A stretch of 64,000 bases of DNA from Candidatus Yonathbacteria bacterium RIFOXYD1_FULL_52_36 (GCA_001823605.1 MHUZ01000034.1:38589-102588); one strand, 5' to 3'; counted from the stretch's first letter, positions 14,281 to 60,931 are shown. Notes: generated by a model not told the origin, from the letters alone. Numbers and translations: made by a program.

Positions 14281-14318
14281 CCAGAAAACGGCTCACCCAG
14301 GGGTGAGCCGTTTTCTGG
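14281..14318. repeat. AACGGCTCA-family palindromic terminator (copy a), 17-bp stem: CCAGAAAACGGCTCACC-CAGG-GGTGAGCCGTTTTCTGG
   Basis: Read directly from the sequence. Lies 3' of the 794-aa gene and upstream of rpsS. Confidence 0.85.
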
Positions 14319-14374: not shown

Positions 14375-16759
14375 CTACCGCGGCCTGATCGCGCCAATAT
14401 TAAATTCGCTCGTGTCGGTTGCACTGATACAGCCAGGGTCGGCATCGGCTGGGGTGCCCGCACCGTTAAAATCAGTGTAGCCGTCACTATCGTTGTCGAT
14501 ACCATCACTACAAACTACGTCAGTGAATTGCGTCGAGGAGTCATTTTCGTCATCATCGCTGGAGTCCACACAGCCGGGATCAACCAAAGAGGCGTCGCCG
14601 GTGCCATCATAGTCAATGAATCCGTCGCCGTCATTGTCAGTGTTGTCTACGCACTGCACAGCCACGCAGTACTCCCCATCCCAAACATTACTGCTCCCAC
14701 ACATGGCGGCGGGATAGATCTCAAGGAGCACATCAGTACCATTGCGTGCTTGGATCGTATTCTCCCCGTAGACGATCTCTTTAATTTGCCCAACAGAAGA
14801 CCCTGTCACATACAGTTCTCCTGTTGTTTGGTTGTAGAAGTTCGGAGAAAGCGCGTCGGTAACAGTTCCCACAACGTACGACCAGCACGTACTCATTCCA
14901 CGCGCGATAGTGCAATCGTACGCAGAAAGCGTTGCACTGGGCACAATGGGTGTAGTCGATTCGGTCACGACCACGTCTACCCAGGGGCTGCAGTTGTCAT
15001 TTTCGCTTGTTTCCGGGATGCTGTTGGAACTATCGGCACACGCGCGCATGGAGTAGGTGCCTGCAGTCGGGAATATGTATGAAATACTGCTCACCGCACT
15101 GGTACCACTTGCAAGCGCTGCCCTAGATATCAAGAACTCCTGGATCGTACCCAAACCGTCACTCTGGCTTGCCAGCTCAATCTTGTTCACGAAAGAATTA
15201 CCTGTCGATGCGGCTCCCTCGTTCGTGATGGTCGCAGAGAATGCCGTTGTCTTGCCGGCGAACGCAGTAGTTGGAGCTACTGAAGAAGCCTTGAGGTTGG
15301 ACATGGAGACCGTGACATTTCCCCATGTACTACAATTATTTGATTCATCGGACTCGGCAATGACTCCTCCGTCCGTGCTTGATGACTTGTCAGCACACGC
15401 GCGCATGGAATAGGTGCCTGCTGTCGGGAATGTGTATGCTTTATCTTTTGGGGAAACCGACCCCACATTACTGAGTACGGGGTGCGTCGATGCAGAAAGG
15501 TCTGTGATTCCTCCGTTGCCATCTGCAAGACTTGCCACCTGGAAAAAATACGGGAAGCTTGTGTCGGTGCTTGCGGTACCGTTGTTGTAGATAATTGCTG
15601 AGAATGTCGTGGAGACGCCCGCAATAACGTTTGTGGGCATGGAATACATATTCGCAGTAAGGTCAGGGATACCCAGCCCGCCCGTGACTGTGACCGTGTC
15701 TGATGCGGTTAAGACCGTACCGTCTGTTGCAATACACTGAACAGTAAATACCGTCTTGTCATAAAGAGGAGTCACGGTTGTGTCGAATCCTGCAGTTGCG
15801 TTGCCGGTTTGAAAACCAGAGTCTGCGCCAGAGATCACACTGCACGATGTCGTGTCTCCAGAATCCCAACCCACACTAATGACGTCACCCTTGGAAACAG
15901 TCTTGTACACTGGACCATACGTGAACGCAGTAACATCAACGAACCTCACTTCCGGAGAGACGTACGGGGGCGGAGCCTCACGCTTTTGAATCCTACCTAC
16001 ATCAAAGTTGTTGTCTGCTCCTCCTACAATATACACATTACCTAGGTCATCTGGCTCCATAGAGTATGGTCCATACCAAAGTTGTGCCGCCTCTCCTTGT
16101 ACGGTGTATGGTCCGTAAGTATATTTCGTCATCCATTCCCCTTTGGGAATAGAGTATATTACCCTATTAACAACTCCTTCAGTTGCAGCCTCAATTTGAA
16201 GGTAACTAGGCCAGCTCGAGTTAAAACCTGTATACGTACTGTTCTGCTCAAGAGACAAACTAGTGCGTGAATAGTTGTCATAGACATTACGCATCTTGGT
16301 ATTGTTATCTCCAGCTAAATCATTTACGTCGAAATCTGGACTGGGATCAACATAAACGGAGACAAGACCAAGGTCACTTTTCCTCCTAATCTCCCACGAA
16401 CCTCCCCACATAGATATTTTTATATTATCACTACCATCAAAAGACACATACCTAACTCCATAGGGAGCTACACTTGTTACCTTTGAAAGCAGTGCTCCAC
16501 TACTAGGTGACCACTTTTGAACCAGAGGGGTTGTTACTGTGTAAAAAAAGTAACCGTATCTATTTCTTCCTGTATATACACCAGTTGCATCTGCAGCAGC
16601 GTCAGAAAAATTATCCCCCGCTGAGTCGATTGACCAAATTAAGTCCCCAAAGGCTGCCGATGCCTGCGTGTACCCCGTAAAAAATATCCCTGCGGCAAGC
16701 AGTATGCTTCCTACTGCTGAAAAAATCTGCTTCTGTAGGTAAGTAGTGTTCATGGTCAT
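14375..16759 (-). CDS. large secreted surface protein with beta-propeller-like repeats, two CARDB-like domains, MopE/TSP3-like Ca or metal-binding repeats (CxDGxDNDxDG...DPGC) and a conserved C-terminal tail ...DPGCISATDTSEFNIGAIRPR
   Basis: N-terminal signal peptide (MTMNTTYLQKQIFSAVGSILLAAGIFFTGYTQASA). CARDB-like YTFPTAGTYSMRACAD...NNC modules occur twice. The acidic DNDGDG repeats and C-terminal tail are shared with the 56731-60204 protein. Confidence 0.75.
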   Translation of the reverse strand: MTMNTTYLQKQIFSAVGSILLAAGIFFTGYTQASAAFGDLIWSIDSAGDNFSDAAADATGVYTGRNRYGYFFYTVTTPLVQKWSPSSGALLSKVTSVAPYGVRYVSFDGSDNIKISMWGGSWEIRRKSDLGLVSVYVDPSPDFDVNDLAGDNNTKMRNVYDNYSRTSLSLEQNSTYTGFNSSWPSYLQIEAATEGVVNRVIYSIPKGEWMTKYTYGPYTVQGEAAQLWYGPYSMEPDDLGNVYIVGGADNNFDVGRIQKREAPPPYVSPEVRFVDVTAFTYGPVYKTVSKGDVISVGWDSGDTTSCSVISGADSGFQTGNATAGFDTTVTPLYDKTVFTVQCIATDGTVLTASDTVTVTGGLGIPDLTANMYSMPTNVIAGVSTTFSAIIYNNGTASTDTSFPYFFQVASLADGNGGITDLSASTHPVLSNVGSVSPKDKAYTFPTAGTYSMRACADKSSSTDGGVIAESDESNNCSTWGNVTVSMSNLKASSVAPTTAFAGKTTAFSATITNEGAASTGNSFVNKIELASQSDGLGTIQEFLISRAALASGTSAVSSISYIFPTAGTYSMRACADSSNSIPETSENDNCSPWVDVVVTESTTPIVPSATLSAYDCTIARGMSTCWSYVVGTVTDALSPNFYNQTTGELYVTGSSVGQIKEIVYGENTIQARNGTDVLLEIYPAAMCGSSNVWDGEYCVAVQCVDNTDNDGDGFIDYDGTGDASLVDPGCVDSSDDDENDSSTQFTDVVCSDGIDNDSDGYTDFNGAGTPADADPGCISATDTSEFNIGAIRPR

Positions 16760-17511
16760 TAGGGCATTAGGTAAATCTTCGTTGCGTTGAACCTGTTGAT
16801 CGAGTACACATTCCCCTCACCCCAAGCGGTCACCTGCGCTCCCGCCACAATGTCGCTCATTGTTTTTCCTTCCAAAAACTCCGTGGTCGGGGTAATGGTG
16901 ATCGTGTATCGCTTCGTGACATACGGGACAGTGAACGAGCCACTTGATGTATCGAGACTATCCAGCTTTTCTTCATCGGCAACTTCTGTCTCGATAGTCA
17001 ATGTCTTTCCTCTAACACTGAGTACCTTCCCCGCGATCATGTCGCGTTGTGTAACCTCGTTGATGACTTGTGTTTTGAGATCAAAACGCTCCACGGACAG
17101 CGCCGTGGGGTGATCGGTCTCGTAAATACTTGCGGATAGCACGGTTTTAACGATCAAGCCCGTGGTAATCTCATTCTTCATGAAACCAACGTATGATGTC
17201 TCGGGACTGAGGTTGATAGTGATCTCACGGTCAGAAAACTGAAGTGGTGTCCTTTTTCGCACAGACTCCTCAACAGTATCGACGTCCCCAACTTGAGTTT
17301 TTATGGTGATCGTCGTATCGGTAATCGCCACGACCGTGCCTTCGATATGTGTGCCGCTTGCAATGAGCTCCTGACGAACCTGTGCGGTCAATTCTTCAAC
17401 ACCCATGCCTTGGGGTTCTGGAGTGCGCATGAGGATAAATGCGACGGCCACAACGAGAACCATGAGCCCTACAATGAATACACCCGGCCGTTCTTTTATT
17501 TTTTGAAACAT
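16759..17511 (-). CDS. N-terminally membrane-anchored hypothetical protein, translationally coupled (ATGA overlap) to the downstream surface-protein gene
   Basis: Start at MFQKIKERPGVFIVGLMVLVVAVAFIL (one TM helix), followed by a Thr/Val-rich extracytoplasmic region. Confidence 0.6.
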   Translation of the reverse strand: MFQKIKERPGVFIVGLMVLVVAVAFILMRTPEPQGMGVEELTAQVRQELIASGTHIEGTVVAITDTTITIKTQVGDVDTVEESVRKRTPLQFSDREITINLSPETSYVGFMKNEITTGLIVKTVLSASIYETDHPTALSVERFDLKTQVINEVTQRDMIAGKVLSVRGKTLTIETEVADEEKLDSLDTSSGSFTVPYVTKRYTITITPTTEFLEGKTMSDIVAGAQVTAWGEGNVYSINRFNATKIYLMP

Positions 17512-17582: not shown

Positions 17583-17612
17583 AAAAACGGCTCACCTGGG
17601 TGAGCCGTTTTT
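17583..17612. repeat. AACGGCTCA-family palindromic terminator (copy b) immediately 3' of rplB
   Basis: AAAAAAAACGGCTCACC-TG-GGTGAGCCGTTTTTTT. Confidence 0.85.
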
Positions 17613-17619
17613 TTGAAAA

Positions 17620-27787: not shown

Positions 27788-27820
27788 AATCAAACGGCTC
27801 ACCCAAGGTGAGCCGTTTGA
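27788..27820. repeat. AACGGCTCA-family palindromic terminator (copy c) 3' of rpmB
   Basis: ATCAAACGGCTCACC-CAA-GGTGAGCCGTTTGAT. Confidence 0.85.
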
Positions 27821-29041: not shown

Positions 29042-29043
29042 TC

Positions 29044-37508: not shown

Positions 37509-39332
37509 TTATTCGACTTCTTTCCATGAGGAAACATTCCACCCCCCGCCCGGCCCCGAAGAAAAGGTCGTATCCGCAACGCCTTGCTCGTAGGTAATGA
37601 CCGCATTGTTTGAAATATTGAGTTTATACCCCACCACCGCTTTCATGTCCGCGTTGTTCGCAACATTGATCATTGAGTCGGTCGTATAGAAAACGGCACC
37701 GGTAAGGTTGTTGCCGAGGTTGATGCCTGAATATCCGGATGCGCACCCTGAGGCAGTCGTTCCGTTACACCCCTCTTTGGTGGACACCGCGAGAAGATAG
37801 CTCCCCGTCTGCCCTGATCCGGCAAATGTCGCGTTGTTGTTGCCATCAATGTATCCATCGGCGAGGAGTACGCAACTATCAGCGCCAAACGTCACATCGC
37901 AGCGAATAGTTGATCCGTTCTCTACGGTAATGTTCCCCTGCACATACACCACCCCCGTGAGATTCATGGTCTCTCCGTTCGTGACCGAAAGATTCCCCGT
38001 GATACGCGCAGGGCCGATCGAGATCGTCCCACCACCGGAACATCCCGCAACGCCGCCCGTATCACCACAGTTACCACTGTACGTTACGCCTGCTGTAGCA
38101 TCAGTTTTCCATTGTTCAATGTTGCCGTCTGAGAGCGGCATATTGAGCGGCGAGGGATCTGCCTGTGATGTGTTGCACGCTTTATTATTGCTTGATCCGC
38201 TCTGACAGTAGAGTGAGCCAGTGATCGTGCTATTGGTAACGGTGTTCGCACGCGCTGCGGCACCAATATCAACATTGTTGATGATCCCCGGACCTCCTCC
38301 TAGGTATGTCTTGAAAGCGAAATCCCCCGTGATTGCCGCAGACCATGCGCTGCCACTACTCCAGCTCGCGCGGTACTTGCCCACACCATTACCGAATCCG
38401 TTATTGCTGTCCTTGCACCAGATAAAATAATTTGTGGTATTAGCACCATCGTCATCGAGAATGATCCAATAGGTATTTCCACCAACAAGACTTGCGGGCG
38501 AAGAGAACGTAACATCAACCCAGCCGTAGGTGGTGGTTATCAAACTTGTCTGAAGCGTAGCGCTTGCGAGTGTCGTTGTGTTGGGTACACCACTTCCATT
38601 ATCTGCGACGACACGGATCGTCTGGTTCCCCGGACTGCCAGTCTTTTTTATATACAAACTTACTTTGTACAGCGGCTTGGAATCGGCGGGAGAAAAACTT
38701 TGTGCAAAGTCGATCTCGGGGCTTGTGCGCGCAATGTTTTGATCAAGGTTACACACCGTCGACTGCGCTTGCACATCCTCCTCAACGCTTGTTGCCACCA
38801 CCGCATCGCCAGTCACTTCGGCACCATTCGCGCCCGTGATCGGCCCGTTCGAGTATACGTTTCCTACCGCGCCGCCAGTCCCCTCAATACTTGAATTTCC
38901 CCCCATGACAATCCCTCCATCACCCACCTGCGCCCCATAGGCAAAGTCAGAACCGACGCCGGCACTGACGACAAGTTTTACGTTGCGATCATTACTGCCC
39001 ACTGCGCCCGATGCCAAGATCTCTTTTTGCGTACCACTCACGGCCGTCACGGCGACCGAAACTGTTCCGCCATTGAGCGCGAGTACTTCCGGGCTCGAAA
39101 GGAGCATCGCTTCCTTGGTGCGATAGTATGCATCTTCGATCCCCGCATCAGAAGTGTAGTAAGAACTCTTTGACTTCATCAACGTCTGCGCATTTTTGAG
39201 ATCACGTACCACCGGCGACATTGAGCCCAAAACGATCGCGATCGATACGATCAAGAAAAACAGGACAGTGATCGTGAGCGCCGCACCACGTGTGTACACC
39301 ATTCTTTTCTGTTGTTGTTTTGATAGGGTCAT
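37509..39332 (-). CDS. large pilus-associated protein (PilX/PilY-like candidate tip or minor subunit) with N-terminal TM anchor and Gly/Asn/Thr-rich extracellular domain
   Basis: 607 aa, N-terminal hydrophobic helix. Last gene of the type IV pilus cluster. Confidence 0.5.
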   Translation of the reverse strand: MTLSKQQQKRMVYTRGAALTITVLFFLIVSIAIVLGSMSPVVRDLKNAQTLMKSKSSYYTSDAGIEDAYYRTKEAMLLSSPEVLALNGGTVSVAVTAVSGTQKEILASGAVGSNDRNVKLVVSAGVGSDFAYGAQVGDGGIVMGGNSSIEGTGGAVGNVYSNGPITGANGAEVTGDAVVATSVEEDVQAQSTVCNLDQNIARTSPEIDFAQSFSPADSKPLYKVSLYIKKTGSPGNQTIRVVADNGSGVPNTTTLASATLQTSLITTTYGWVDVTFSSPASLVGGNTYWIILDDDGANTTNYFIWCKDSNNGFGNGVGKYRASWSSGSAWSAAITGDFAFKTYLGGGPGIINNVDIGAAARANTVTNSTITGSLYCQSGSSNNKACNTSQADPSPLNMPLSDGNIEQWKTDATAGVTYSGNCGDTGGVAGCSGGGTISIGPARITGNLSVTNGETMNLTGVVYVQGNITVENGSTIRCDVTFGADSCVLLADGYIDGNNNATFAGSGQTGSYLLAVSTKEGCNGTTASGCASGYSGINLGNNLTGAVFYTTDSMINVANNADMKAVVGYKLNISNNAVITYEQGVADTTFSSGPGGGWNVSSWKEVE

Positions 39333-39336
39333 ACTA

Positions 39337-39855: not shown

Positions 39856-39856
39856 A

Positions 39857-40321: not shown

Positions 40322-40355
40322 AAATATGCTTTTAGTATACACCTCCCCAACACTC

Positions 40356-40817
40356 TTACGAAGAACTCGCCACCCCCGTTCCATTCACGGTGATCGTACG
40401 CGTCTTTGCGGTATCGTTCGTGACGCGGATCACGAACGTGCCGTTCTGTGATGTTTTGCCGGTCAACCGATCAAATAGTACATTCTGTCCGCCTCCCGTA
40501 AGCGTGATCGAGGTGATCTCGAGCGCGCCATCAAGCACAACGTCTTGATTATTCGAATCAGAACTTGAATACGTCGCGCCCTGATAGATCACCGCTTTGT
40601 CTGCTTGGAGGTGTACGCCATATTGGAGGCCATCTTTTGAGGAAAGCGTATCTCCGCGCGCCTGCGAGAGTGCAGTAAGCACGTCTTCTACTGCCGTATC
40701 GAGCACCTTGCTGTTGCGAAATGCGGAAAACGAAGAGAGCACGATCGCTGACAACACCGCAAGGACCGCAACGACGATCAGGAGCTCAAGCAACGTAAAA
40801 CCTTTTTTAGTGAACAT
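40356..40817 (-). CDS. pilA: type IV major pilin (PilA-like)
   Basis: MFTKKGFTLLELLIVVAVLAVLSAIVLSSF canonical prepilin leader plus G/FTLxE. Confidence 0.8.
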   Translation of the reverse strand: MFTKKGFTLLELLIVVAVLAVLSAIVLSSFSAFRNSKVLDTAVEDVLTALSQARGDTLSSKDGLQYGVHLQADKAVIYQGATYSSSDSNNQDVVLDGALEITSITLTGGGQNVLFDRLTGKTSQNGTFVIRVTNDTAKTRTITVNGTGVASSS

Positions 40818-40823
40818 ATGCTC

Positions 40824-42035
40824 CTAGATATTATTCATGACCGAATACATCGGCGAGATCATCGAGATCGCAAAGAATCCAACGCCACCTCCGATCACGA
40901 GCATGAGGATCGGCTCAATAATGGTTGCCATGTCTTTCGTCGCCGCTTCAACCTCTGCTTCGTAGAATGACGCAACGCGCATGAGCATTTCTGAGAGCTT
41001 GCCGGTCTCCTCACCCACTTCGACCATCTCGCCCACCAGGATCGGGTAGATATTGTCTGCCTCTGCGAACGCCACTGAGAGCGCGGTTCCTTTTTGCACG
41101 CCCTGCGATGCCTTTTCGAGCACCTCTTTGTAGTATGAATTCTGGAGCACATCACGCGTAATGTTGATGGACTCGATAATATCCACGCCGGAAGAAAGGA
41201 GCGAGGAAAGCGTGCGCGCGGTGAGCGCCGAGTTTGCTTCTTTGGCGATCCCCGAGACCACCGGCATGTGGAGCACGAACCACTCAAAACTGCGCCTGCC
41301 TCTCGGCGTACGGAGCGCCATGATAAAACCTGTTACCAACACCACGAATCCCAGCAACACCCAAAGCCCATAATTCTGGAGACTATCGCTTATAAAAATG
41401 ATTGCCTTGGTCGAAGCAGGAAGATCACCACCGATCTCCTTGAATGTCCCAATGAGCGTGGGCACCACATAAATGAACATGAGGACCGCAATGATGAGCA
41501 TTGCCGAGATGACCACCGAAGGATAGATCATCGCGCCCTTGATCTTCTTGCGTAGGTTGTAGCTTTTTTCAAGCTGGTTGCCGATCACCGTAAGCGCCTG
41601 TGAAAGGTTGCCTGACTCTTCTCCTGCGCGCACCATGGAAACAAAGAGCGTCGAGAACACCTTTTCGTGCTTGCCCATCGCGTCGGAGAGACTGTTACCT
41701 TTGCTGATCTCTTCGTTTAGGTCGTGGAGGATGCCCTTGAACTTTATGTTCTGGGTTTGCTTCTCAAGGACCGAGAGTCCGCGCGAAAGTGAAAGCCCTG
41801 CATCGATCATCGCCGAAAGATTTTTGGCGAACACGATACGGTCCTGCATCTTGATACGCGTGAGGTACTTGCTCACGTCAATATTCATACCCTTCTTCTC
41901 GACCTCATCGATCGCGATCACCTCTTTGCCTTGTGCTTTGAGCTCTTTGGCGAGCGCGAACTTGTCCGCCGCGTCAGAATCCCCCTCAGTGATTGCGCCG
42001 GAACTTTCTCGTACTTTGTAATGGAATGTAGACAT
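40824..42035 (-). CDS. pilC: type IV pilus assembly platform protein PilC (GspF family)
   Basis: Two T2SSF repeats. 403 aa. 3 TM segments. Confidence 0.85.
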   Translation of the reverse strand: MSTFHYKVRESSGAITEGDSDAADKFALAKELKAQGKEVIAIDEVEKKGMNIDVSKYLTRIKMQDRIVFAKNLSAMIDAGLSLSRGLSVLEKQTQNIKFKGILHDLNEEISKGNSLSDAMGKHEKVFSTLFVSMVRAGEESGNLSQALTVIGNQLEKSYNLRKKIKGAMIYPSVVISAMLIIAVLMFIYVVPTLIGTFKEIGGDLPASTKAIIFISDSLQNYGLWVLLGFVVLVTGFIMALRTPRGRRSFEWFVLHMPVVSGIAKEANSALTARTLSSLLSSGVDIIESINITRDVLQNSYYKEVLEKASQGVQKGTALSVAFAEADNIYPILVGEMVEVGEETGKLSEMLMRVASFYEAEVEAATKDMATIIEPILMLVIGGGVGFFAISMISPMYSVMNNI

Positions 42036-42039
42036 GGGA

Positions 42040-43794
42040 TTATTCGGACACCACGCGGAAGATCTCTTCGATGCTCGTGAGCCCCTTCGCGGCTTTATAG
42101 ATACCGTCTTCGATCATCGTGATCATCTCTTCTTTCTTTGCCTGCGTTTCGATCTCGGCGGCCGTGGATCCCTTGATCACCAGCTCTTTGATCGTGGGCG
42201 ACATTTTCAAAATCTCGTGGATCCCGATGCGTCCCTTGTAGCCATCTTCACACTCATCTGATTTTTTCGCACGATAGAACGGAATGTCACCCCAATCCTG
42301 ATCATCCTTGATGATCTTCTCTTCTTTGAGCACGCCGAGCACGCGATCAAGGTCAATGATCTTGCTGAGACGTGCGATCTCATCATCGTTAAGCAAATAG
42401 CGTTCTTTGCCCGCGTCACACAAACGGCGCACGAGGCGCTGTGCAATGATCACGTTGACCGTCGAAACAATAAGGAACGGCTCAACACCCATGTCGATCA
42501 TGCGCGGGATCGCACCCGCAGCAGAGTTGGTGTGGAGTGTCGAGAGCACCAGGTGTCCCGTGAGTGACGCGTTGATTGCGAGCGATGCCGTTTCTTGGTC
42601 ACGCACCTCTCCCACCATGATGATGTCCGGGTCTTGACGCATGAGCGTACGGAGGCCGTTCGCAAAGGTGAGGCCGATCTCCGATTTCACCTGCGTCTGA
42701 TTCACGCGCGCCATTTGGTATTCGATCGGATCCTCGATCGTCGAGATGTTCACCTCGGGCGTATTCAAAATATCGAGCATTGTATAGAGCGTCGTGGTCT
42801 TTCCTGATCCCGTCGGTCCTGTGGTGAGGAGGAGTCCCACCTTTTGCTTCATGGCATCATGGATGCGCTCAAGTCCTAGGCCGTGAAAACCAAGGCCTTC
42901 GAGCGTAAATCCTGACGATGAGTCCCTCAAAAGACGCATGACGGTCTTTTCACCAAAGTATGTCGGGAGTGTCGAGACGCGGAACGATACTTTCTGATCG
43001 GCGGTCTCGATCTTGAAGCGTCCGTCCTGAGGAAGACGCTTTTCATCGAGCTTCAAGTTCGAAAGCACCTTCAAGCGTGCCGTAATGCCCGGAGCCACAT
43101 CTTTGGGGAGCACCATCGCGTCATGGAGAATGCCGTCAATGCGATACCGAATGACCATTTGTCCTTCCATCGGCTCGATATGAATATCTGACGCTCCCTG
43201 CAGAATGGCGTGGTTGAGCAGCGTATCCACGATCTTCACGATCGGCAGATCTTCAGCAAGCTCTTTCAGGTCTTTTTCTGACTTCTCGCCCCCTTCTTCA
43301 TCCGAAAGCGATTTTACCGATACGGCTTCTTTCTGAATGATGTCACCGAATTCTGACTTGAGGTCTTTTTGGTATTGGACGAGCGCCCCTTTGAGCGAAT
43401 CCTGATCGGTGAGACGGGGGAGAATCTTGAGTCCCACCTTTTTCTTGACGAATTCGATGGCCGTCAGGTTGTCGGTGTCGAGCATCGCCACCTCGAGCGC
43501 CGTGGTGGTCTTTTTGAACGCCACAATGTTGTGTTTGCGGGCGATCGGCTCCGGGATCATCGAAAGCACTTCAAAATCGATCTTCTGACCTTTGAGTGAG
43601 ACGAAGGGGATGCCGAGAATGTACGCTTCTGTTCGGCGCAGATCGTCTTCAGTGACTTTGCCATCGCTTACCAAAATTTCACCGAGGTAGCGCCGTTTGT
43701 CGTGCGCCTTCTTGAGGGCAGCATCAAGGTCAGACGAGGGAATAAGTCCCGCATCGAGGAGAAACTCACCAAGTTGTTCGTCGCGAACGTTCAT
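42040..43794 (-). CDS. pilB: type IV pilus assembly ATPase PilB (GspE family)
   Basis: N-terminal T2SSE_N domain. Walker A TGPTGSGKTTTLY, Asp and His boxes, tetracysteine motif. Confidence 0.9.
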   Translation of the reverse strand: MNVRDEQLGEFLLDAGLIPSSDLDAALKKAHDKRRYLGEILVSDGKVTEDDLRRTEAYILGIPFVSLKGQKIDFEVLSMIPEPIARKHNIVAFKKTTTALEVAMLDTDNLTAIEFVKKKVGLKILPRLTDQDSLKGALVQYQKDLKSEFGDIIQKEAVSVKSLSDEEGGEKSEKDLKELAEDLPIVKIVDTLLNHAILQGASDIHIEPMEGQMVIRYRIDGILHDAMVLPKDVAPGITARLKVLSNLKLDEKRLPQDGRFKIETADQKVSFRVSTLPTYFGEKTVMRLLRDSSSGFTLEGLGFHGLGLERIHDAMKQKVGLLLTTGPTGSGKTTTLYTMLDILNTPEVNISTIEDPIEYQMARVNQTQVKSEIGLTFANGLRTLMRQDPDIIMVGEVRDQETASLAINASLTGHLVLSTLHTNSAAGAIPRMIDMGVEPFLIVSTVNVIIAQRLVRRLCDAGKERYLLNDDEIARLSKIIDLDRVLGVLKEEKIIKDDQDWGDIPFYRAKKSDECEDGYKGRIGIHEILKMSPTIKELVIKGSTAAEIETQAKKEEMITMIEDGIYKAAKGLTSIEEIFRVVSE

Positions 43795-43914
43795 GGGTGC
43801 TTTGGTCAAAGTATACCACGACAATTCGCGCAACGCTGGGGATTAGTATGATTTTCCGATCATGCAAAAATCCCAGAAGATCATTCTGGGGAGGTCCTGG
43901 CTTCTCCAGGGAGA

Positions 43915-44125: not shown

Positions 44126-45325
44126 TTAATTTTTCTTATTTAAGGACGATGGAACAAAACCGTTTTTCTCCAGGACATAAAATATACCCCGTAGTAAATA
44201 ATTATTGATAAAACCAATCGTGTACACCCTGCTCTTCCCGGGCACAGGACGAAGCATTTCCTTATCTTTAAGTCGCTTGAGAATGCGCGAGCGCTGAACG
44301 GGTGATTCTTTTCCGATGATCACATCGAGGTCTGATGATTTGACGCTCATTGATTTGCTTTTAACCAAAGCGGTTAAAATGCTGAACTCACGTTCAGTAA
44401 TAAGTTTTCGTTCAAGCGCATACGACAAAGACGGTATCAGAATTGTCTCGGTTATATACTTCAGATCAAGCAAGCGATCAATTTTTTCGATCTCCTCTCT
44501 CAGTCCCTCAAGAACGTACGCACACCACCGTAACACCTGTTCTTGCTCACCAGTATCCGCAAGTGCCAAGTTTGCATAGTATTCATTTCGATCCATGCAA
44601 AAGATCGCTGTCGGGTTGAGAATTCTTCCGTTATGGACCTTGAAGCCCTGCTTAATGAGCAGTGCGTAGGTAAACATACGAATTAAACGTCCGTTGCCGT
44701 TATCAAACGGGTGAATCCACGCCATACGATGATGAGAGAGTGCCGTGACCAAGAGGTCGTTCTGGGGACTAGTGTCTGCGTTCACAAAAGCAATAAGCTC
44801 CTCAAAGTAATCCGGCACTTTCACCATATCGGGTGGGATATGTGATGAACCTTGAATTCCGACATTGATCGGTCGCAGACCACCTGGGTAACGAGACCCT
44901 TCTCCGGATGGCGGTGGAGTAAGACCATCCACAATGATCTTGTGCAATTCTGAAATGTGGGCACGCGTGATTATTCCACCCTCCGTAATGGTCTCTTCAA
45001 TGAATTTAATTGCTCGCTCAATGTTAAAAATCTCTCGAATGGATTCCTCTTTGGTATCTTTCGGAACCTGGTCAATGATCTTTTCGACGAATTCTGCAAG
45101 AGTTGTATGATTCCCTTCAATACGCGCAGATCCGAGGCTCTCCATCAGCTGAAAAATATCTTTCAGCTGAAAGAAAATGTACGGCGGCACTGGTCCGCCA
45201 AGCTTTTTTACGCGCAACTTTTCAAGCTCGACAATGGTGCTGGCGAGCTCCGACCCCCACGCCGGTTCGTATATTTTTAGAGGGATTTCTTTGAATTCCC
45301 CTTTATTTACATCTTTAGATTCCAT
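44126..45325 (-). CDS. Fic/DOC family protein (AMPylase-type) with inhibitory helix motif
   Basis: Fic core HPFDNGNGRLIRM. N-terminal SARIEGN matches the (S/T)xxxE(G/N) inhibitory motif. Lower GC than the core genome. Confidence 0.85.
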   Translation of the reverse strand: MESKDVNKGEFKEIPLKIYEPAWGSELASTIVELEKLRVKKLGGPVPPYIFFQLKDIFQLMESLGSARIEGNHTTLAEFVEKIIDQVPKDTKEESIREIFNIERAIKFIEETITEGGIITRAHISELHKIIVDGLTPPPSGEGSRYPGGLRPINVGIQGSSHIPPDMVKVPDYFEELIAFVNADTSPQNDLLVTALSHHRMAWIHPFDNGNGRLIRMFTYALLIKQGFKVHNGRILNPTAIFCMDRNEYYANLALADTGEQEQVLRWCAYVLEGLREEIEKIDRLLDLKYITETILIPSLSYALERKLITEREFSILTALVKSKSMSVKSSDLDVIIGKESPVQRSRILKRLKDKEMLRPVPGKSRVYTIGFINNYLLRGIFYVLEKNGFVPSSLNKKN

Positions 45326-45432: not shown

Positions 45433-45477
45433 AACAAACGGCTCAGCGTAGCTGAGCCGTTTGTTGAGCCGTTTAAT
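45433..45477. repeat. AACGGCTCA palindrome (copy d) with an extra right half-site. Its 26-bp core is identical to copy e.
   Basis: AACAAACGGCTCAGC-GTA-GCTGAGCCGTTTGTT then GAGCCGTTTAAT. Confidence 0.85.
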
Positions 45478-50676: not shown

Positions 50677-50718
50677 GAAAACGGCTCAGGGAACGGCTCA
50701 GCGTAGCTGAGCCGTTTA
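50677..50718. repeat. AACGGCTCA palindrome (copy e) with an extra left half-site. Mirror of copy d.
   Basis: AAAACGGCTCAGGG then AACGGCTCAGC-GTA-GCTGAGCCGTTTAA. Confidence 0.85.
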
Positions 50719-56667: not shown

Positions 56668-56710
56668 AACAAAACAAACGGCTCAGCATTGCTGAGCCGT
56701 TTGTTTTGTT
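56668..56710. repeat. AACGGCTCA-family palindromic terminator (copy f) shared by convergent clpP and the giant surface-protein gene
   Basis: AACAAAACAAACGGCTCAGC-ATT-GCTGAGCCGTTTGTTTTGTT. Confidence 0.85.
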
Positions 56711-56730: not shown

Positions 56731-59700
56731 CTACCGCGGTCTGATCGTGCCGATGTTAAATTCGCTGGTATCGGCGGCACTGGTACATCCTGGGTCTGCG
56801 TTGGCAGGGTTTCCATTACCATCCCAGTCGATTTTGCTATCGCTATCGTTGTCGATACCGTCGTTGCACTGAGTGGGGGGTACATTGAACTCGTCACTGT
56901 CGCGCGGATCATACGTGCCGGATGTGTTTTCGCAGCCAAGATCGTCGACATCGACATCTCCGTCCCCATCATCATCACTGTTGTTTGAACAGGCCGGGTT
57001 TGGTGATTCAGTGGTGTCGGTTGCACTGGAGCAGCCCGGGTCGGCTGGGTAGTTGTTCAGACCGTCACCATCGTTGTCTGTCGTGTCGCTACATTGAGGC
57101 GCGGCAGGTGCGCAAATCGTACCGTTCCAAGGGGCACTTGAGACACATGCGGCATTGACGGTGATGTCCCGTATAAACGTAGTATTGTCACGTGCCCGAA
57201 TAGTGTTGTTGCCGTAGCCAAGCGTACATGGCGCATTGGTACCCGTAGCACCGGTTCCACAAGAGGCACTGCGTGTCTGGTTGTAGACGTTGGGGGTGGT
57301 TGCGTTCTGAATGACCCACGTCACTCGTCCGGGGCAGGTACTTGCATTTGCGGCAATGGTACAGGTGGTCGCAGTGAGGGTGGGTGCAGTGGGGGCGGAG
57401 CCGGAGACGGTAATGTTCTGCCATGGGCCGCAGTTATTGGTTTCGCTCGCCTCAACGACAGTGCCCGCATCTGAAGCGGATCCTTTATCTGCACAGGCAC
57501 GTGCAGAGTATGTTTGTATATTAGGGAACGTATACGAACGCGTAATGGGAGAATTTGCTCCGGCGGCAAGCGTAGATATTGTTGACGGCAAGAGGCCGGT
57601 GATTACTCCACCCCCGTTTGCGCCACTTGCCACTTGGAAGAAGTTCTGGAACCCTGAATGAGCACCTATTTTGGTGACACTGGTGGCAGCATTATTCGTG
57701 ACCCACATATTCGTGCCGTCAAAGGCGATGCCCCAAGGACTATTCCCTGTTCCAGAGTATACGGTAGCCGCCCCTGATGGAGAGATCCTTGTCACGCTAT
57801 TGTTGCTAAAGTTCGCAGCCCACATATTCGTGCCGTCAAAGGCAATATCTGTTACGACCCTAGCCAGCGGGTATGTGGTCATGCCACCTGTGGGGGAGAT
57901 CCTCGTCACGCTACTCCCAGAGAGCGCGGTTCCGTTCGCCGTCCACATATTCGTTCCGTCAAAGGCGATCGCTCGTGGAACAGACCCCGTACCGCTATAG
58001 GTGGTCATTGTTCCTGTGGGAGAAATTTTTGTAACACGATTCGCATTATAGTTTGCTACCCACATATTGGTGCCGTCGGAGGCAATGCCCCAAGGCGCAC
58101 CTCCAACAGGAAGCGCATACGTGGTCATACCACCCGCGGGGGTAATCTTTGTTACAGAGTTACTCCCGATATTTGCCGTCCACATGTTCGTGCCGTCAAA
58201 GGCAATATCCCACGGGCCACCTCCAGTTCCTCCATACGAAGTTCTTACTCCACCAGGAGTAATCCTGGTCACACTATTGCTATTAGTATTTGCGACCCAC
58301 ATGTTCGTGCCGTCAAAGGCAATCCCCCGGGGGCCACCCCCTACTCCTCCATATGTTGTCATGGTTCCCGTAGGAGAAACTTTCGTAACACTATTCGCGC
58401 TTCCGTTGGTCACCCACATATTGGTGCCATCGGAGGCAATGCCAAATGGTCCTGCCCCCGTCCCTCCATACGTGGTCATACTGCCAATAATCGTGCTCGG
58501 GGTAGCTGTACCGCCAATGTTCCGTATTTGGGCAGAAAGAGAAACTGGCGTGTTCCGTACTGCAGTAACAGGAGTTACTGCAGATGCGACAAGGTCGGGC
58601 TGAGAAGGTGCTGGGGTTACCGTTACAGTTACTGAGTCGCACGGCGACCACGCCATTGAATTGTCGCGCACGTGGAAGTAGATAGTGTTCGTGCCGACAG
58701 GGAGATCACTTTTTGTAAATGAACTTGCGCTTGAAATATTTGCGCCTGCACCACAGCCACCACGATTCCATCCATACGCAGCGATAGTCCCGTCGGGGTC
58801 ATTTCCCGTGCCGGTGAACGTCACGGTGCTACCGGAAGCGACGGTAATGTTCCCTGCGGGGACGGTAATGGTGGCGGTAGGGACTTGGTTGGAAGGCGGA
58901 AGGACAGGGACGCCATCGAGTTCCCGCTTCTGAAGGACAGCTGACGCTGAAGTGTTCGAAGCAAAGATCGTTCTCAATACATACATATACTCATCGTTGC
59001 CCTCAATACCGACAGGGAATGATTGGGGTGGCAATCCGCCAACTTCCCAACCAAGTGCCCCATTGGTTAGACTTCTTTTTTGAAGAAAAGCGGGCGAAGC
59101 ACCCACACGACGGATACCATAGATCCCCTGATTACCGAGTACATAACCATATGATGTCCCCGACACCATCGGCAGTGGCGCACTCCAGGCCGGACCTCCT
59201 GAACTCGTATTCCTTGCAGTCAAAGAAAATGTTGGGTTGACGATCGTACCCCCCATCGCAAGGCCATGTGTCCGTGTACCAGGGTTCTCTATTACGCCAC
59301 CTTTTATTCGTTCTGAGATTCCCGTATAGTTGCCGGAAGTAGACCAGACCGGTGATCCTCCTAATCCCCATTTTTCTGTCGTAGCCGAACCTGTCGCCAT
59401 GAATGATGCTTGTTGAAGGTAGAGATTCTGAGCATCGATACCAAAGATCTTCGTGACATTCGGTGTTCGCCTCCACACCAGATTTCCATTCGTAAGATTA
59501 CGGCGTTCCACAAAACCAGAGCTGACTCCCCACGTTACACCATACGTCCCCGCCACATAGACGCCTGAGCCGTTTACCGCAATCGAACTTGGAGATACTC
59601 CTTGTCCTAACACAGTATTCTCAGCCCATACCAGAGCACCATTGGTTTTATTGATACGCACAATTCGTGCATATCCGTTCCCGGAAAAATACTGCCCTAC

Positions 59701-60204
59701 ACCGTATACCGATGTGCCGTCAACGACAATACCGTTATCAAATGTGGGGATGTTCCCCACAACACGAGACCATATAACCAAGCCATTCACCTTTGAGCGC
59801 TTCTCAATCCTCCACGTTGATCCTCCAGCGAGACCGCCGCCTGAATTGTTTACTCCTGAAATATAGACCCCCGTGGCATCTAACTCAATTTCCCGCGGAC
59901 AGTCTGAGGTGTTGGTGTAGTTCTCTGATCTTTGCCACGCACGGCTTCCATCAAGATTCCGCTTCTCCACATACCATCGAGCCCCACGCAGGGTTGGCGA
60001 CCACCCTCCGGCACAAGCTCCACCAGACTCACCCGCTAAGTAAACCCCTGTGGCATCATTTGCATACACACTGGGCAAAGCGTACCCCGAACTGTGGGTT
60101 ATTGCTTGCTGCCAAACCAGGTCACCTCGCACCGCATACGCAACTGAAAACGATACCCCCCAAATAGCCGCTATAAAAAGTACTTTTTTGTAGAGTGAGG
60201 CCAT
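56731..60204 (-). CDS. giant secreted surface protein: N-terminal PQQ-like beta-propeller repeats, about 8 NHL/Vgb-like propeller repeats, CARDB-like domain, MopE/TSP3-like Ca or metal-binding repeats, conserved C-terminal tail ...DPGCTSAADTSEFNIGTIRPR
   Basis: Signal peptide from MASLYKKVLFIAAIWGVSFSVAYA (start 60204; upstream in-frame ATGs at 60225 and 60300 are possible). Repeats read from translation: G(V/I)Y(V/L)(A/S)G...W.(I/V)E(K/R)R..(N/D)G...W.R, and GGGPRGIAFDGTNMWVANTNSNSVTRI. Confidence 0.75.
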   Translation of the reverse strand: MASLYKKVLFIAAIWGVSFSVAYAVRGDLVWQQAITHSSGYALPSVYANDATGVYLAGESGGACAGGWSPTLRGARWYVEKRNLDGSRAWQRSENYTNTSDCPREIELDATGVYISGVNNSGGGLAGGSTWRIEKRSKVNGLVIWSRVVGNIPTFDNGIVVDGTSVYGVGQYFSGNGYARIVRINKTNGALVWAENTVLGQGVSPSSIAVNGSGVYVAGTYGVTWGVSSGFVERRNLTNGNLVWRRTPNVTKIFGIDAQNLYLQQASFMATGSATTEKWGLGGSPVWSTSGNYTGISERIKGGVIENPGTRTHGLAMGGTIVNPTFSLTARNTSSGGPAWSAPLPMVSGTSYGYVLGNQGIYGIRRVGASPAFLQKRSLTNGALGWEVGGLPPQSFPVGIEGNDEYMYVLRTIFASNTSASAVLQKRELDGVPVLPPSNQVPTATITVPAGNITVASGSTVTFTGTGNDPDGTIAAYGWNRGGCGAGANISSASSFTKSDLPVGTNTIYFHVRDNSMAWSPCDSVTVTVTPAPSQPDLVASAVTPVTAVRNTPVSLSAQIRNIGGTATPSTIIGSMTTYGGTGAGPFGIASDGTNMWVTNGSANSVTKVSPTGTMTTYGGVGGGPRGIAFDGTNMWVANTNSNSVTRITPGGVRTSYGGTGGGPWDIAFDGTNMWTANIGSNSVTKITPAGGMTTYALPVGGAPWGIASDGTNMWVANYNANRVTKISPTGTMTTYSGTGSVPRAIAFDGTNMWTANGTALSGSSVTRISPTGGMTTYPLARVVTDIAFDGTNMWAANFSNNSVTRISPSGAATVYSGTGNSPWGIAFDGTNMWVTNNAATSVTKIGAHSGFQNFFQVASGANGGGVITGLLPSTISTLAAGANSPITRSYTFPNIQTYSARACADKGSASDAGTVVEASETNNCGPWQNITVSGSAPTAPTLTATTCTIAANASTCPGRVTWVIQNATTPNVYNQTRSASCGTGATGTNAPCTLGYGNNTIRARDNTTFIRDITVNAACVSSAPWNGTICAPAAPQCSDTTDNDGDGLNNYPADPGCSSATDTTESPNPACSNNSDDDGDGDVDVDDLGCENTSGTYDPRDSDEFNVPPTQCNDGIDNDSDSKIDWDGNGNPANADPGCTSAADTSEFNIGTIRPR

Positions 60205-60226
60205 GGAGTGATTTGTACTATTCATA

Positions 60227-60931
60227 TTATTGAGCGATTGGTGTTGCCATTCCCTGGTAATAGGCCGCGATGCAATGTTTCTGGAAAACCTCTGTTGCAA
60301 ACTCGCTGCAAAATTCTTGTGTCAACGAAGCCTGGCTATCAAGTGATCCTTGAAGTACGTTGCAATCTTTTTCCATTTTCTGATCATCGAACAAATCGCA
60401 CTGCGTTGTCGCCAAACCCCCTGACATCACTGTTGCAAATGAAAATTCGTCACGACACGAAGACTGTTTCTCTTCTGGCGCTTGATCACATAGTGTTTGG
60501 TCATTCTTTTTGAGTGCAAGTGACAAGTAAAAATTGTCCTTGCATGCTGTTTTTTCCTCTTCTACAACCATCTCATCACACACAGAGACACTTTCGTCTC
60601 GTAACGCTTTTGCATTTACCACTGAGCGTTCACAGTCCACGCGCGGCACTAGCACATCGTCAAGGAGTGCACAGTTGGATACGTCGAGTGTTTCCTGCGC
60701 TTTGTTGAGCGCGATATTGTTACGGCACACCGTACGGTACATCGTATCCTTGATCTGATCACAGGAATCGATCTGCCCCTGCTCGACAAGCGCACTCACT
60801 TCATTTTGAAGCAGAACCTCCTGGTCAGAAGAAAGTCCTCCTGGAGAGCGGCCGACAAAAAAAACTACCATAGCAAGCACTAAAACAATGAGTGCCGCAC
60901 CGACGACGATCTTTCGTTTCTCAATGTGCAT
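60227..60931 (-). CDS. N-terminally membrane-anchored Cys-rich protein upstream of the giant surface-protein gene
   Basis: One TM helix (IVVGAALIVLVLAMVVFFV), at least 12 Cys in the extracytoplasmic part. 22-nt gap to the downstream gene. Confidence 0.5.
   Translation of the reverse strand: MHIEKRKIVVGAALIVLVLAMVVFFVGRSPGGLSSDQEVLLQNEVSALVEQGQIDSCDQIKDTMYRTVCRNNIALNKAQETLDVSNCALLDDVLVPRVDCERSVVNAKALRDESVSVCDEMVVEEEKTACKDNFYLSLALKKNDQTLCDQAPEEKQSSCRDEFSFATVMSGGLATTQCDLFDDQKMEKDCNVLQGSLDSQASLTQEFCSEFATEVFQKHCIAAYYQGMATPIAQ

What the first reader, a model, noticed from the sequence alone, without database searches (positions are those of the whole stretch)
56731..60931. Two giant secreted proteins share a conserved C-terminal tail, and each is preceded by a small membrane-anchored partner protein
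The 794-aa protein ends ...CSDGIDNDSDGYTDFNGAGTPADADPGCISATDTSEFNIGAIRPR. The roughly 1157-aa protein ends ...CNDGIDNDSDSKIDWDGNGNPANADPGCTSAADTSEFNIGTIRPR. The nucleotide sequences differ at synonymous positions, so the tail is conserved at protein level and is not a recent duplication. Both proteins also carry CARDB-like modules (FFQVAS...YTFP..GTYS.RACADK...E.NNC) and MopE/TSP3-like acidic CxDGxDNDxDG...DPGC repeats. Each gene sits just downstream of a gene for an N-terminally anchored single-TM protein (16759-17511 and 60227-60931). The tail is not LPXTG, PEP-CTERM or a T9SS CTD. It may be a lineage-specific sorting, anchoring or partner-recognition signal for envelope display in an organism that lacks an outer membrane. 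This is the kind of machinery expected for episymbiont attachment.
Basis: partly seen in the sequence, partly recalled or inferred. Interest (0 to 1): 0.7.

Follow-up and report, generated by a model that had tools for sequence, protein, structure and literature searches.

The report
Shared C-terminal tail on secreted proteins
Three or more exported proteins of one tiny groundwater bacterium (Candidatus Yonathbacteria) end in the same tail, made of a common calcium-binding-type repeat plus a 7-residue end piece that may be a new kind of surface-retention tag; the proposed upstream "partner" proteins are unrelated to each other.

Summary
Two minus-strand genes (14375-16759, 794 aa; 56731-60204/60300, 1157-1189 aa) end in ...DPGC.SA.DTSEFNIG.IRPR. 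The tail is conserved at protein level: pN 0.06-0.15 against pS 0.54-0.72.

The tail has two parts.
- The first ~38 residues (C.DGIDNDSD...DPGC.S..D.SEFN) are one copy of a widespread acidic, disulfide-bridged repeat. It occurs in 2090 representative proteins from many phyla, usually internal and tandem. The closest solved relative is the Ca2+-binding teneurin C-rich domain.
- Only the last 7 residues, IG[AST][IL][RK]P[RA], are lineage-specific.

That end piece is still positionally conserved. A third, differently built protein of the same genome carries it, as do that protein's orthologs at 50-69% identity. More distant orthologs carry a different end motif at the same place. That motif, P-x-Φ-x-E-x or Φ-x-E-[IV]-x-P at the extreme C-terminus, occurs in 111 of 133 Parcubacterial homologs. 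I found no description of it.

The "partner" idea is not supported. The upstream single-TM proteins share no similarity, and such neighbours are common.

Best reading: a Ca2+-stabilised stalk repeat plus a short C-terminal recognition peptide. Its function is inferred, not shown.

The parts
14375..16759 (-). Gene for the 794-aa secreted protein (NCBI tag A2408_01870, Candidatus Yonathbacteria RIFOXYD1_FULL_52_36). It has an N-terminal signal peptide (aa 1-35, 16655-16759), two CARDB modules, a beta domain, two acidic repeats and the tail.
   Evidence: ORF. CARDB at 71 bits. Identity to P0001 and the organism name. Coordinates.
14399..14512 (-). Body of the tail in the 794-aa protein (aa 750-787, CSDGIDNDSDGYTDFNGAGTPADADPGCISATDTSEFN). 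This is the terminal copy of the widespread acidic, Cys-bridged, Ca2+-binding-type repeat.
   Evidence: 50-67% identity to repeats in 229+ loci of many phyla. The consensus after the second Cys is [ST]S[AP]xD[NDT][DSN]E-x-N. NF033662 hit below its cut-off. Teneurin-4 C-rich domain 7PLP is the best PDB hit.
14378..14398 (-). Lineage-specific extreme C-terminal heptapeptide IGAIRPR of the 794-aa protein.
   Evidence: In 1.84 billion representative proteins, only strain variants of the two window proteins matched the profile through to this end among the 150 listed hits. It is conserved in the third paralog and its orthologs.
14546..14656 (-). Internal acidic repeat of the 794-aa protein (aa 702-738).
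16759..17511 (-). Upstream gene for a 250-aa N-terminally anchored protein with two weak DUF5666-like beta domains. Its stop overlaps the start of the 794-aa gene (TAATG). It is co-transcribed, but it is not a conserved 'partner' family.
   Evidence: DUF5666 E = 3e-4, below cut-off. No similarity to the other upstream protein. Junction.
56731..60225 (-). Gene for the 1157-1164-aa secreted protein (A2408_03120). In order: signal peptide (60133-60204), N-terminal beta-rich region, PKD-like domain (58618-58857), Vgb_lyase-type beta-propeller (57934-58485), CARDB (57430-57585), beta domain, three acidic repeats, tail.
56755..56868 (-). Body of the tail in the 1157-aa protein (CNDGIDNDSDSKIDWDGNGNPANADPGCTSAADTSEFN), the terminal acidic repeat.
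   Evidence: Same evidence as for the 794-aa tail body. The preceding internal repeat ends ...DSDEFNVPPTQC, which shows that EFN belongs to the repeat/linker.
56734..56754 (-). Extreme C-terminal heptapeptide IGTIRPR of the 1157-aa protein.
56884..57096 (-). Two internal acidic repeats of the 1157-aa protein.
   Evidence: NF033662 at 35.8 bits (cut-off 41).
60227..60931 (-). Upstream gene for a 234-aa N-terminally anchored protein. It has six paired-Cys segments (C-x10-12-C) and no family match. Its stop lies 1 nt before ATG M26 of the giant gene.
14288..14311 (.). Hairpin ACGGCTCA...TGAGCCGT downstream of the 794-aa gene. It is a generic terminator-like palindrome of this genome, not tail-specific.
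   Evidence: Six copies in the window against 0 expected. Sequence.
56678..56700 (.). The same hairpin type downstream of the 1157-aa gene.

Best explanation
The 45-aa tail is a composite.

(1) Residues 1-38 are the last copy of a widespread extracellular repeat, C-x-D-G-x-D-N-D-x-D-G...D-P-G-C-x-S-x-x-D-x-S-E-x-N. This is an acidic loop closed by one disulfide. By analogy with the teneurin C-rich domain and thrombospondin type-3 repeats, it binds Ca2+ and forms a rigid spacer. This step is inferred from sequence similarity.

(2) The last 7 residues, I-G-[AST]-[IL]-[RK]-P-[RA]-COOH, are a short linear motif specific to Candidatus Yonathbacteria and close relatives. The motif sits where more distant Parcubacterial orthologs and many other secreted Parcubacterial proteins carry a different extreme C-terminal motif (P-x-Φ-x-E-x or Φ-x-E-[IV]-x-P).

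Proposed mechanism (inferred, not shown):
- The proteins are exported by Sec and their signal peptides are removed.
- Disulfides and Ca2+ stiffen the C-terminal repeats.
- The free C-terminal peptide is recognised by an envelope component, either by docking or by enzymatic processing and attachment.
- The protein is then held by its C-terminus, with the CARDB and beta-propeller parts pointing outward.

The upstream single-TM genes are co-transcribed neighbours, not a dedicated partner family.
For: - Composite nature. The genome scan and the exhaustive HMMER search match tail positions ~2-43 only, in hundreds to thousands of proteins with up to 34 copies each. The repeat consensus includes D-x-S-E-[FY]-N.
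- Ca2+ analogy. The best PDB hit of a 36-repeat profile is the teneurin-4 C-rich domain 7PLP (E = 0.0028), followed by EF-hand loops. 7PLP binds three Ca2+ with TSP3-like coordination (PMC9058538).
- The terminal peptide is conserved and positional. It is found on three architectures in one genome: 794 aa, 1157 aa and 357 aa (A2408_01870, A2408_03120, A2408_02330). It is also found on orthologs of the 357-aa protein at 69%, 63% and 50% identity, as ...EFNIGSIRPR...EFNIGSIRPA and ...EFNIGSLKPR.
- Selection. pS is 0.46-1.1 against pN 0.04-0.15 over the last 21 codons in all pairs.
- Positional equivalence. In 35-38%-identical orthologs with the same architecture, the end is ...LPxPxF[KQH]E[IV]xP, and MAFFT puts S-I-R-P-R under E-I-K-P-E.
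- The general motif. It occurs in 111 of 133 homologs against 3 of 150 acidic-repeat proteins from all phyla. It follows at least five different kinds of preceding domain. 103 of the 111 have an N-terminal hydrophobic segment, and only 1 of 111 has a C-terminal one.
- A second family with the same end type. The neighbouring 'AWTGPT' secreted protein ends ...YIGTLAP or ...AVGHLVP, the same [IV]-G-x-[IL]-x-P type.
Against: - No recognition machinery was identified. There is no sortase-like or other candidate enzyme in the window.
- The AF2 model gives no information on the tail. pLDDT is 40-60 for residues 256-357 and below 50 for the last 8.
- The near-invariant Glu of the general motif is Ser, Ala or Thr here, so equivalence of the two motifs rests on alignment of very short segments. 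An alternative alignment is possible: I-R-P with the [VIL]-[VIL]-P that precedes Φ-x-E, as in P0006 ...VIRPIIFER.
- The end piece also resembles a truncated inter-repeat linker (EFNVPPTQC against EFNIGTIRPR), so it could be a structural cap.
- Only about 100 kb of the genome could be inspected, so genome-wide counts are unknown.
- The 48-aa word-index search found nothing. It also missed the proteins themselves, so it is uninformative.
Confidence: 0.5

Rival explanations
1. The tail is purely structural. It is just the last repeat of a Ca2+-binding, disulfide-bridged repeat array, plus the remnant of an inter-repeat linker acting as a cap. Its conservation reflects folding constraints and the spread of one C-terminal module (Cys-rich segment, repeat and end) by duplication or domain shuffling within this lineage. 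It has no sorting or recognition role.
For: - The body of the tail is a canonical repeat.
- 19 of the 150 best-scoring repeat proteins from diverse phyla also end within 15 residues of their last repeat, for example ...CTSAYDASEFNQ and ...CISAYDDNEFNR. C-terminal placement is therefore not special.
- Internal linkers resemble the end piece: DSDEFNVPPTQC in the 1157-aa protein and DTSEIDTISPPTTQC in P0168.
- The module shared by the three paralogs is 75-130 aa long, not 45.
Against: - In other lineages the residues after the last repeat's Glu are variable and show no common motif. Here EFNIG.[IL][RK]P is nearly invariant across paralogs and across orthologs down to 50% identity, with saturated synonymous sites.
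- A similar [IV]G.L.P end occurs on a neighbouring protein family that has no acidic repeat.
- Distant orthologs carry a different but equally terminal conserved motif at the same place.
Confidence: 0.33
2. One reading: the tail is recognised by the small membrane-anchored protein encoded just upstream. Each giant would then have its own anchor or partner.
For: - Tight gene coupling: TAATG overlap and a 1-nt gap.
- Both upstream proteins have one N-terminal TM helix and an extracytoplasmic body.
- The third tail gene is also preceded by exported or anchored proteins in a conserved order.
Against: - The three upstream proteins have no detectable similarity to each other (all E > 1) and no shared Pfam or NCBIfam family. 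A near-identical tail would have to be read by three unrelated proteins.
- By a crude hydropathy test, 59 of 180 ORFs in Parcubacteria-type loci have an N-terminal hydrophobic segment. Two out of two by chance is therefore about 11%.
Confidence: 0.07
3. The tail is a secretion signal of the type I (RTX-like) kind. Acidic Ca2+-binding repeats followed by an uncleaved C-terminal signal would drive export and Ca2+-dependent folding outside the cell.
For: There is an architectural analogy: Ca2+-binding-type acidic repeats sit next to the C-terminus.
Against: - All three proteins have classical N-terminal signal peptides.
- The repeats are Cys-bridged, not GGxGxD nonapeptides.
- No ABC/MFP exporter genes lie nearby.
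- According to the literature, CPR cells lack an outer membrane (PMC6744442).
Confidence: 0.03

Closest known systems
Teneurin cysteine-rich (C-rich) Ca2+-binding domain (PDB 7PLP) and thrombospondin type-3 repeats
   Same: The core motif C-x-D-x-x-D-N-D-G-D-G-L-x-D-x-x-D-P-x-C is shared. It is the best PDB hit of the repeat profile (E = 0.0028). The location is extracellular, and the motif is an acidic loop closed by a disulfide. In 7PLP the acidic residues coordinate three Ca2+ in a TSP3-like way (PMC9058538). The teneurin core was earlier likened to the MopE motif (PMC3278476).
   Different: Teneurin has six Cys and three disulfides in a single domain. The repeat here has two Cys per ~35-45-aa unit and occurs in tandem arrays. 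Only the first 23 profile positions align. Ca2+ binding by the bacterial repeat has not been shown.
NCBIfam NF033662 'acidic double-disulfide repeat'
   Same: This is the only curated model that touches the tail. It hits the start of the tail and the internal repeats.
   Different: Scores are 16.8 and 35.8 bits against a cut-off of 41. The repeat here has one Cys pair per unit.
Sortase (LPXTG), exosortase/archaeosortase (PEP-CTERM, PGF-CTERM and similar) and T9SS C-terminal sorting signals
   Same: Like those signals, the end piece is a conserved element at the extreme C-terminus of Sec-exported surface proteins of varied architecture, present on several proteins per genome.
   Different: There is no hydrophobic helix after the motif, no LPXTG or PEP motif, no ~80-aa beta-sandwich CTD, and no matching NCBIfam or Pfam model. 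No cognate enzyme was found.
Extreme C-terminal motif P-x-Φ-x-E-x / Φ-x-E-[IV]-x-P of Parcubacterial secreted proteins (seen here; no description found in the searched literature)
   Same: It occupies the same position, the last 6-9 residues, on the same kinds of proteins, including direct orthologs of the third tail protein. The [IV]-x-P-x ending is shared.
   Different: The near-invariant Glu is Ser, Ala or Thr in the Yonathbacteria tail, and the upstream Pro is missing. Both types coexist in this genome: the window protein 37509-39332 ends ...SSWKEVE.
RTX / type I secretion substrates
   Same: Acidic Ca2+-binding-type repeats lie close to a functional C-terminus.
   Different: An N-terminal Sec signal is present, the repeats have a different chemistry, and there are no T1SS genes nearby.

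Membership tests
CARDB (Pfam PF07705) | HMM score above the gathering threshold (22.7 bits). | tested here: met
   71.3 bits for the 794-aa protein (two stretches) and 29.0 bits for the 1189-aa ORF.
NF033662 acidic double-disulfide repeat | HMM score at or above the curated cut-off (41 bits). | tested here: not met
   16.8 and 35.8 bits. 17.4 and 22.9 bits for related tails. This is similarity, not membership.
Pfam Cu-binding_MopE (PF11617) / TSP type-3 repeat families | A detectable HMM match. | tested here: not met
   No hit at E <= 0.1 on the whole proteins or at E <= 10 on the isolated C-terminal regions.
Teneurin C-rich Ca2+-binding domain | The core acidic motif C-x-D-x-x-DNDGDG-x-x-D-x-x-DP-x-C. 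| tested here: met
   Profile of 36 repeats against PDB: 7PLP at E = 0.0028, aligned over profile positions 1-23.
Teneurin C-rich Ca2+-binding domain | Six cysteines forming three disulfides, and three bound Ca2+. | tested here: not met
   There are only two Cys per repeat unit in the tails. Ca2+ binding cannot be tested here.
Sortase substrate (LPXTG-type cell-wall sorting signal) | An LPXTG-like motif followed by a hydrophobic helix and a basic tail. | tested here: not met
   The tail has no LPXTG and no hydrophobic segment (sequences). No sortase gene was found in the window.
PEP-CTERM / archaeosortase-type signals | A signature motif, then a TM helix, then an Arg-rich end; matched by NCBIfam models. 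| tested here: not met
   No NCBIfam hit and no C-terminal hydrophobic segment.
T9SS C-terminal domain | An ~80-100-aa beta-sandwich CTD model hit, in a diderm host with T9SS. | tested here: not met
   No NCBIfam or Pfam CTD hit. The AF2 model shows no folded C-terminal domain. The host is a CPR bacterium.
Type I secretion (RTX) substrate | No N-terminal signal peptide, GGxGxD repeats, and an adjacent ABC/MFP exporter. | tested here: not met
   N-terminal signal peptides are present. Repeats of that type are absent. No exporter genes occur within +/-10 kb.
Proposed Yonathbacteria-type C-terminal tail | The extreme C-terminal ...D-T-[SN]-E-F-N-I-G-x-[IL]-[RK]-P-[RA] on an exported protein. | tested here: met
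   Met by both window proteins, by the 357-aa protein on contig Ga0208375_1000428 (locus L089; protein P0289 / NCBI tag A2408_02330; a 99%-identical strain variant on locus L090 is P0165), and by P0166, P0167 and P0168.
   No similarity among the three upstream proteins.

The most novel reading that the evidence does not exclude
Parcubacteria (CPR) may use an undescribed class of sorting or attachment signal that has no TM segment and lies at the extreme C-terminus of Sec-exported surface proteins. Its forms are P-x-Φ-x-E-x-COOH and Φ-x-E-[IV]-x-P-COOH. The Yonathbacteria tail ending I-G-x-[IL]-[RK]-P-[RA] would be a lineage-specific variant. The signal would be read by a still unknown envelope receptor or transpeptidase-like enzyme, with the residues after the conserved position acting as a short leaving group or docking peptide.
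Probability: 0.3. Interest if true: 0.8.

Novelty: new variant of a known kind. Interest (0 to 1): 0.5.

Why it matters
How CPR/Patescibacteria build and decorate their envelope is unknown, and so is how their giant surface proteins are held on a cell that has no outer membrane and often no obvious sortase substrates. A short, modular C-terminal motif would give a concrete handle on this. It is found on most secreted proteins of two large Parcubacterial families, with a lineage-specific variant on at least three proteins of one genome. It could be used to predict the surface proteome, to search for the cognate machinery by phylogenetic profiling, and to look for processed C-termini in existing groundwater metaproteomes. 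If the tail is only a structural cap, the finding reduces to one more occurrence of a common Ca2+-binding repeat.

Tried and rejected
- The word-index homolog search with the 48-aa tail returned no candidates. It is uninformative, because it also missed the proteins themselves.
None of the 78 loci had the SEFNIG.IRPR end.
- Pfam scans of the isolated C-terminal regions gave no MopE or TSP3 hit.
- A single-sequence PDB search gave only a non-significant dockerin hit (5lxv_B, E = 0.65).
- The AF2 model of the 357-aa paralog, built with a 62-sequence alignment, has low confidence for the Cys-rich, repeat and tail part. Foldseek against PDB found nothing significant.
- I did not use the messy alignment A4 for a second structure prediction.
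- I considered whether the similar hairpins after the tail genes mark a mobile 3' cassette. I rejected this because the same palindrome occurs six times in the window, at unrelated genes as well.
- I considered recent gene conversion as the cause of the tail identity. I rejected it on pS 0.46-0.72.
- Walking about 9 kb beyond each window edge found no further tail genes.
- Literature searches found no paper on a CPR C-terminal motif or on the 'acidic double-disulfide repeat'.

Full report
**1. The observation**

The window carries two minus-strand ORFs. One is 14375..16759 (794 aa). The other is 56731..60300 (1189-aa ORF). Its likely starts are M26 at 60225 or M33 at 60204, and independent gene calls give 1157 aa.

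Both have N-terminal signal peptides. Both end in ...DPGC[IT]SA[TA]DTSEFNIG[AT]IRPR. 33 of the last 50 residues are identical. The motif occurs nowhere else in the six-frame translation of the window.

The two proteins are in fact similar over about 330 C-terminal residues. That region covers CARDB, a beta domain, the acidic Cys repeats and the tail (39% identity, E = 1e-46). The tail is the best-conserved segment:

| Segment | pN | pS |
|---|---|---|
| Last 21 codons | 0.06 | 0.54 |
| Last 45 codons | 0.15 | 0.72 |
| Rest of the shared region | 0.43 | 0.78 |

CARDB is confirmed in both proteins. The larger protein also has a PKD-like domain and a Vgb_lyase-type beta-propeller.

**2. Source**

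Exact-sequence look-ups place all of this in Candidatus Yonathbacteria bacterium RIFOXYD1_FULL_52_36. This is a Parcubacteria/CPR genome from the Rifle aquifer. The locus tags are A2408_01870 and A2408_03120.

**3. What the tail is made of**

- *Genome scan.* A scan of 185,579 species genomes with the two-tail alignment returned more than 229 confirmed matches at 50-67% identity. They cover only tail positions ~2-43. They come from CPR, DPANN archaea, Myxococcota, Gammaproteobacteria, Acidobacteriota, Actinomycetes and others.
- *Copy number and position.* The 78 loci kept hold about 1000 copies, mostly internal and tandem. Only a handful lie at a C-terminus, and none has SEFNIG.IRPR.
- *Exhaustive protein search.* HMMER over 1.84 billion representative proteins gave 2090 hits at E <= 1e-3, with up to 34 copies per protein. 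Among the 150 listed, only P0045 and P0084 matched all 50 profile positions up to their own C-terminus. Both are strain variants of the two window proteins.
- *Repeat consensus.* In 269 strictly defined repeats, the residues after the second Cys read [ST]-S-[AP]-x-D-[NDT]-[DSN]-E-x-N. Phe or Tyr is common after the Glu.

So C.DGIDNDSD...DPGC.S..D.SEFN is a canonical repeat unit. Only I-G-x-I-R-P-R is specific to this lineage.

*Comparison with known families:*

- No Pfam family, including MopE and TSP3, matches.
- NCBIfam NF033662 (acidic double-disulfide repeat) hits below its cut-off.
- A profile of 36 repeats finds the teneurin-4 C-rich domain (7PLP, E = 0.0028) as the best solved relative, followed by EF-hand loops.
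- 7PLP binds three Ca2+, two of them coordinated as in thrombospondin type-3 repeats (PMC9058538).
- The teneurin core motif had already been compared with MopE (PMC3278476).

C-terminal placement of such a repeat is not unusual. 19 of the 150 top proteins end within 15 residues of the last repeat's Glu, with variable ends.

**4. The end piece is nevertheless conserved and positional**

A degenerate DNA pattern for D..EFNIG.IRP was scanned over the metagenome collection. It gave one locus, L089, on a 62-kb contig.

That locus encodes a 357-aa signal-peptide protein with a completely different N-terminal architecture (GYAWSDTIGWISLN-type domain plus an Ig-like domain). It ends ...ADPGCTSTADTSEFNIGSIRPR. 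It is A2408_02330, so it belongs to the same genome.

Its orthologs keep the end:

| Ortholog | Identity to the 357-aa protein | C-terminal end |
|---|---|---|
| P0166 | 69% | ...EFNIGSIRPR |
| P0167 | 63% | ...EFNIGSIRPA |
| P0168 | 50% | ...EFNIGSLKPR |

Gene order is also conserved: TatD, a small TM protein, an 'AWTGPT' secreted protein, the tail protein, then rpsF-ssb-rpsR.

Over the last 21 codons, all pairs of the three paralogs and two orthologs have pS 0.46-1.1 and pN 0.04-0.15.

The neighbouring 'AWTGPT' protein has no acidic repeat. It ends ...YIGTLAP...AVGHLVP or ...YVGDLVIQ, which is the same [IV]-G-x-[IL]-x-P type.

**5. Relation to a much wider motif**

More distant orthologs of the 357-aa protein (35-38% identity; Sungbacteria and others) have the same architecture, including a final acidic repeat. 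They end ...LPxPxF[KQH]-E-[IV]-x-P. MAFFT aligns S-I-R-P-R under E-I-K-P-E.

I took the 133 homologs recovered through their N-terminal or CARDB regions and examined their ends:

- 78 end P-x-Φ-x-E-x.
- 33 end Φ-x-E-[IV]-x-P-x(0-2).
- About nine more are close variants.
- The motif follows at least five different kinds of preceding domain.
- 103 of the 111 motif proteins have an N-terminal hydrophobic segment, and only one has a C-terminal one.
- Only 3 of 150 acidic-repeat proteins from all phyla end this way.
- No NCBIfam or Pfam model covers it.
- I found no description of it in the searchable literature.
- The same genome also has an E-type end. The 607-aa protein at 37509..39332, next to the type IV pilus genes, ends ...SSWKEVE.

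Equivalence of IGxIRPR with the E-type motif rests on a very short alignment, and an alternative register exists (P0006 ...VIRPIIFER). I treat it as a lead, not a result.

**6. The 'partner' proteins**

Both giant genes are tightly coupled to an upstream gene for an N-terminally anchored protein. The junctions are a TAATG overlap and TAA-T-ATG.

- The two upstream proteins share no similarity.
- Neither resembles the upstream proteins of the third tail gene.
- One has weak DUF5666-like beta domains.
- The other has six C-x10-12-C pairs and no family match.
- By a crude hydropathy test, 59 of 180 ORFs in comparable Parcubacterial loci have an N-terminal hydrophobic segment. Two out of two by chance is therefore about 11%.

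Co-transcription is likely. A dedicated partner family is not supported.

**7. Mechanism**

*Shown:*

- The composition of the tail.
- Its selection pattern.
- Its recurrence on three or more architectures and on orthologs.
- Its strictly terminal position.
- The absence of any TM segment or known sorting domain.

*Inferred:*

- The repeat binds Ca2+ and is disulfide-stapled. CPR genomes are enriched in MdbA/VKOR-type disulfide machinery (PMC6744442).
- The free terminal peptide is read by an envelope component that retains or processes the protein.

The AF2 model is uninformative for this region. No candidate enzyme lies in the roughly 100 kb inspected.

The main rival is a purely structural cap that spread with a duplicated C-terminal module.

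**8. Verdict**

A lineage-specific C-terminal signal is plausible, but it is about 7-10 residues long, not 45. The remainder is a common repeat, and the partner idea fails.
- Novelty: a new variant within the general kind 'C-terminal motifs of exported surface proteins'. It sits on a repeat of a known kind.
- Interest is moderate (0.5). It would be higher if the wider Parcubacterial motif proves to be a real sorting signal.

Noticed in passing
Proteins P0002-P0014 and P0165-P0284 (homologs); window 37509-39332 (-): 111 of 133 Parcubacterial secreted homologs end in P-x-Φ-x-E-x or Φ-x-E-[IV]-x-P-x(0-2) at the very C-terminus, for example ...VVPVFNEF and ...LPEWKEIAPF. The motif comes after several unrelated kinds of domain and has no C-terminal TM segment. 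No Pfam or NCBIfam model covers it and no paper was found. The window's 607-aa protein beside the pilus genes ends ...SSWKEVE.
   Followed up: partly
window 14119-17619; also locus L079: The two-gene cassette (250-aa anchored protein plus the 794-aa giant) is inserted inside the S10 ribosomal-protein operon, between rplB (17620-18492) and rpsS (13771-14118). The third tail gene lies directly upstream of rpsF-ssb-rpsR (L090, L092). Tail genes thus sit in or next to ribosomal operons.
   Followed up: partly
window 14288-14311, 17587-17608, 27794-27816, 45438-45460, 50693-50715, 56678-56700; L090 ~4832-4858: A palindrome ACGGCTCA-N(6-8)-TGAGCCGT, followed by a T-run, occurs six times in 64 kb (0 expected). 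Two copies bracket the cassette inserted in the S10 operon. It looks like a genome-specific terminator or REP-like element.
   Followed up: partly
L090 2876-3622, L091 2710-3399, L092 2656-3261: A conserved secreted protein family sits upstream of the third tail gene. It has a signal peptide followed by AWTGPT..P..N..P.NVG. It ends ...YIGTLAP, ...YVGDLVIQ or ...AVGHLVP, which resembles the IGxIxP end of the tail but comes without any acidic repeat.
   Followed up: partly
window 57934-58485 (beta-propeller region of the 1157-aa gene) compared with P0084: A strain variant (P0084, 1118 aa) lacks exactly one 39-aa propeller blade (...AANFSNNSVTRISPSGAATVYSGTGNSPWGIAFDGTNMW...). Blade number therefore varies between populations.
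   Followed up: no
window 60227-60931 (-): The 234-aa upstream protein consists of one TM helix followed by six segments, each with a Cys pair spaced 10-12 residues apart (for example SCDQIKDTMYRTVC and NCALLDDVLVPRVDC). It matches no family.
   Followed up: no
window 37509-43833 and 28187-31139: There is a type IV pilus cluster: a pilin with an N_methyl motif at 40356-40817, a PilC-like gene at 40824-42035, and a PilB-like gene at 42040-43833. The PilB/PilC names are judged from the sequences by eye only. There are also ComEC (29613-31139) and a metallo-beta-lactamase protein (28187-29041), giving typical CPR competence and pilus gene content. A TraG/VirD4-like 919-aa gene lies at 1935-4694 and a Fic protein at 44126-45325.
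   Followed up: partly
window 14375-16759: NCBI's model of this gene (OHA82835.1, P0285) is 585 aa. Other gene callers and the ORF give 794 aa with a signal peptide. The deposited annotation probably starts too late.
   Followed up: no
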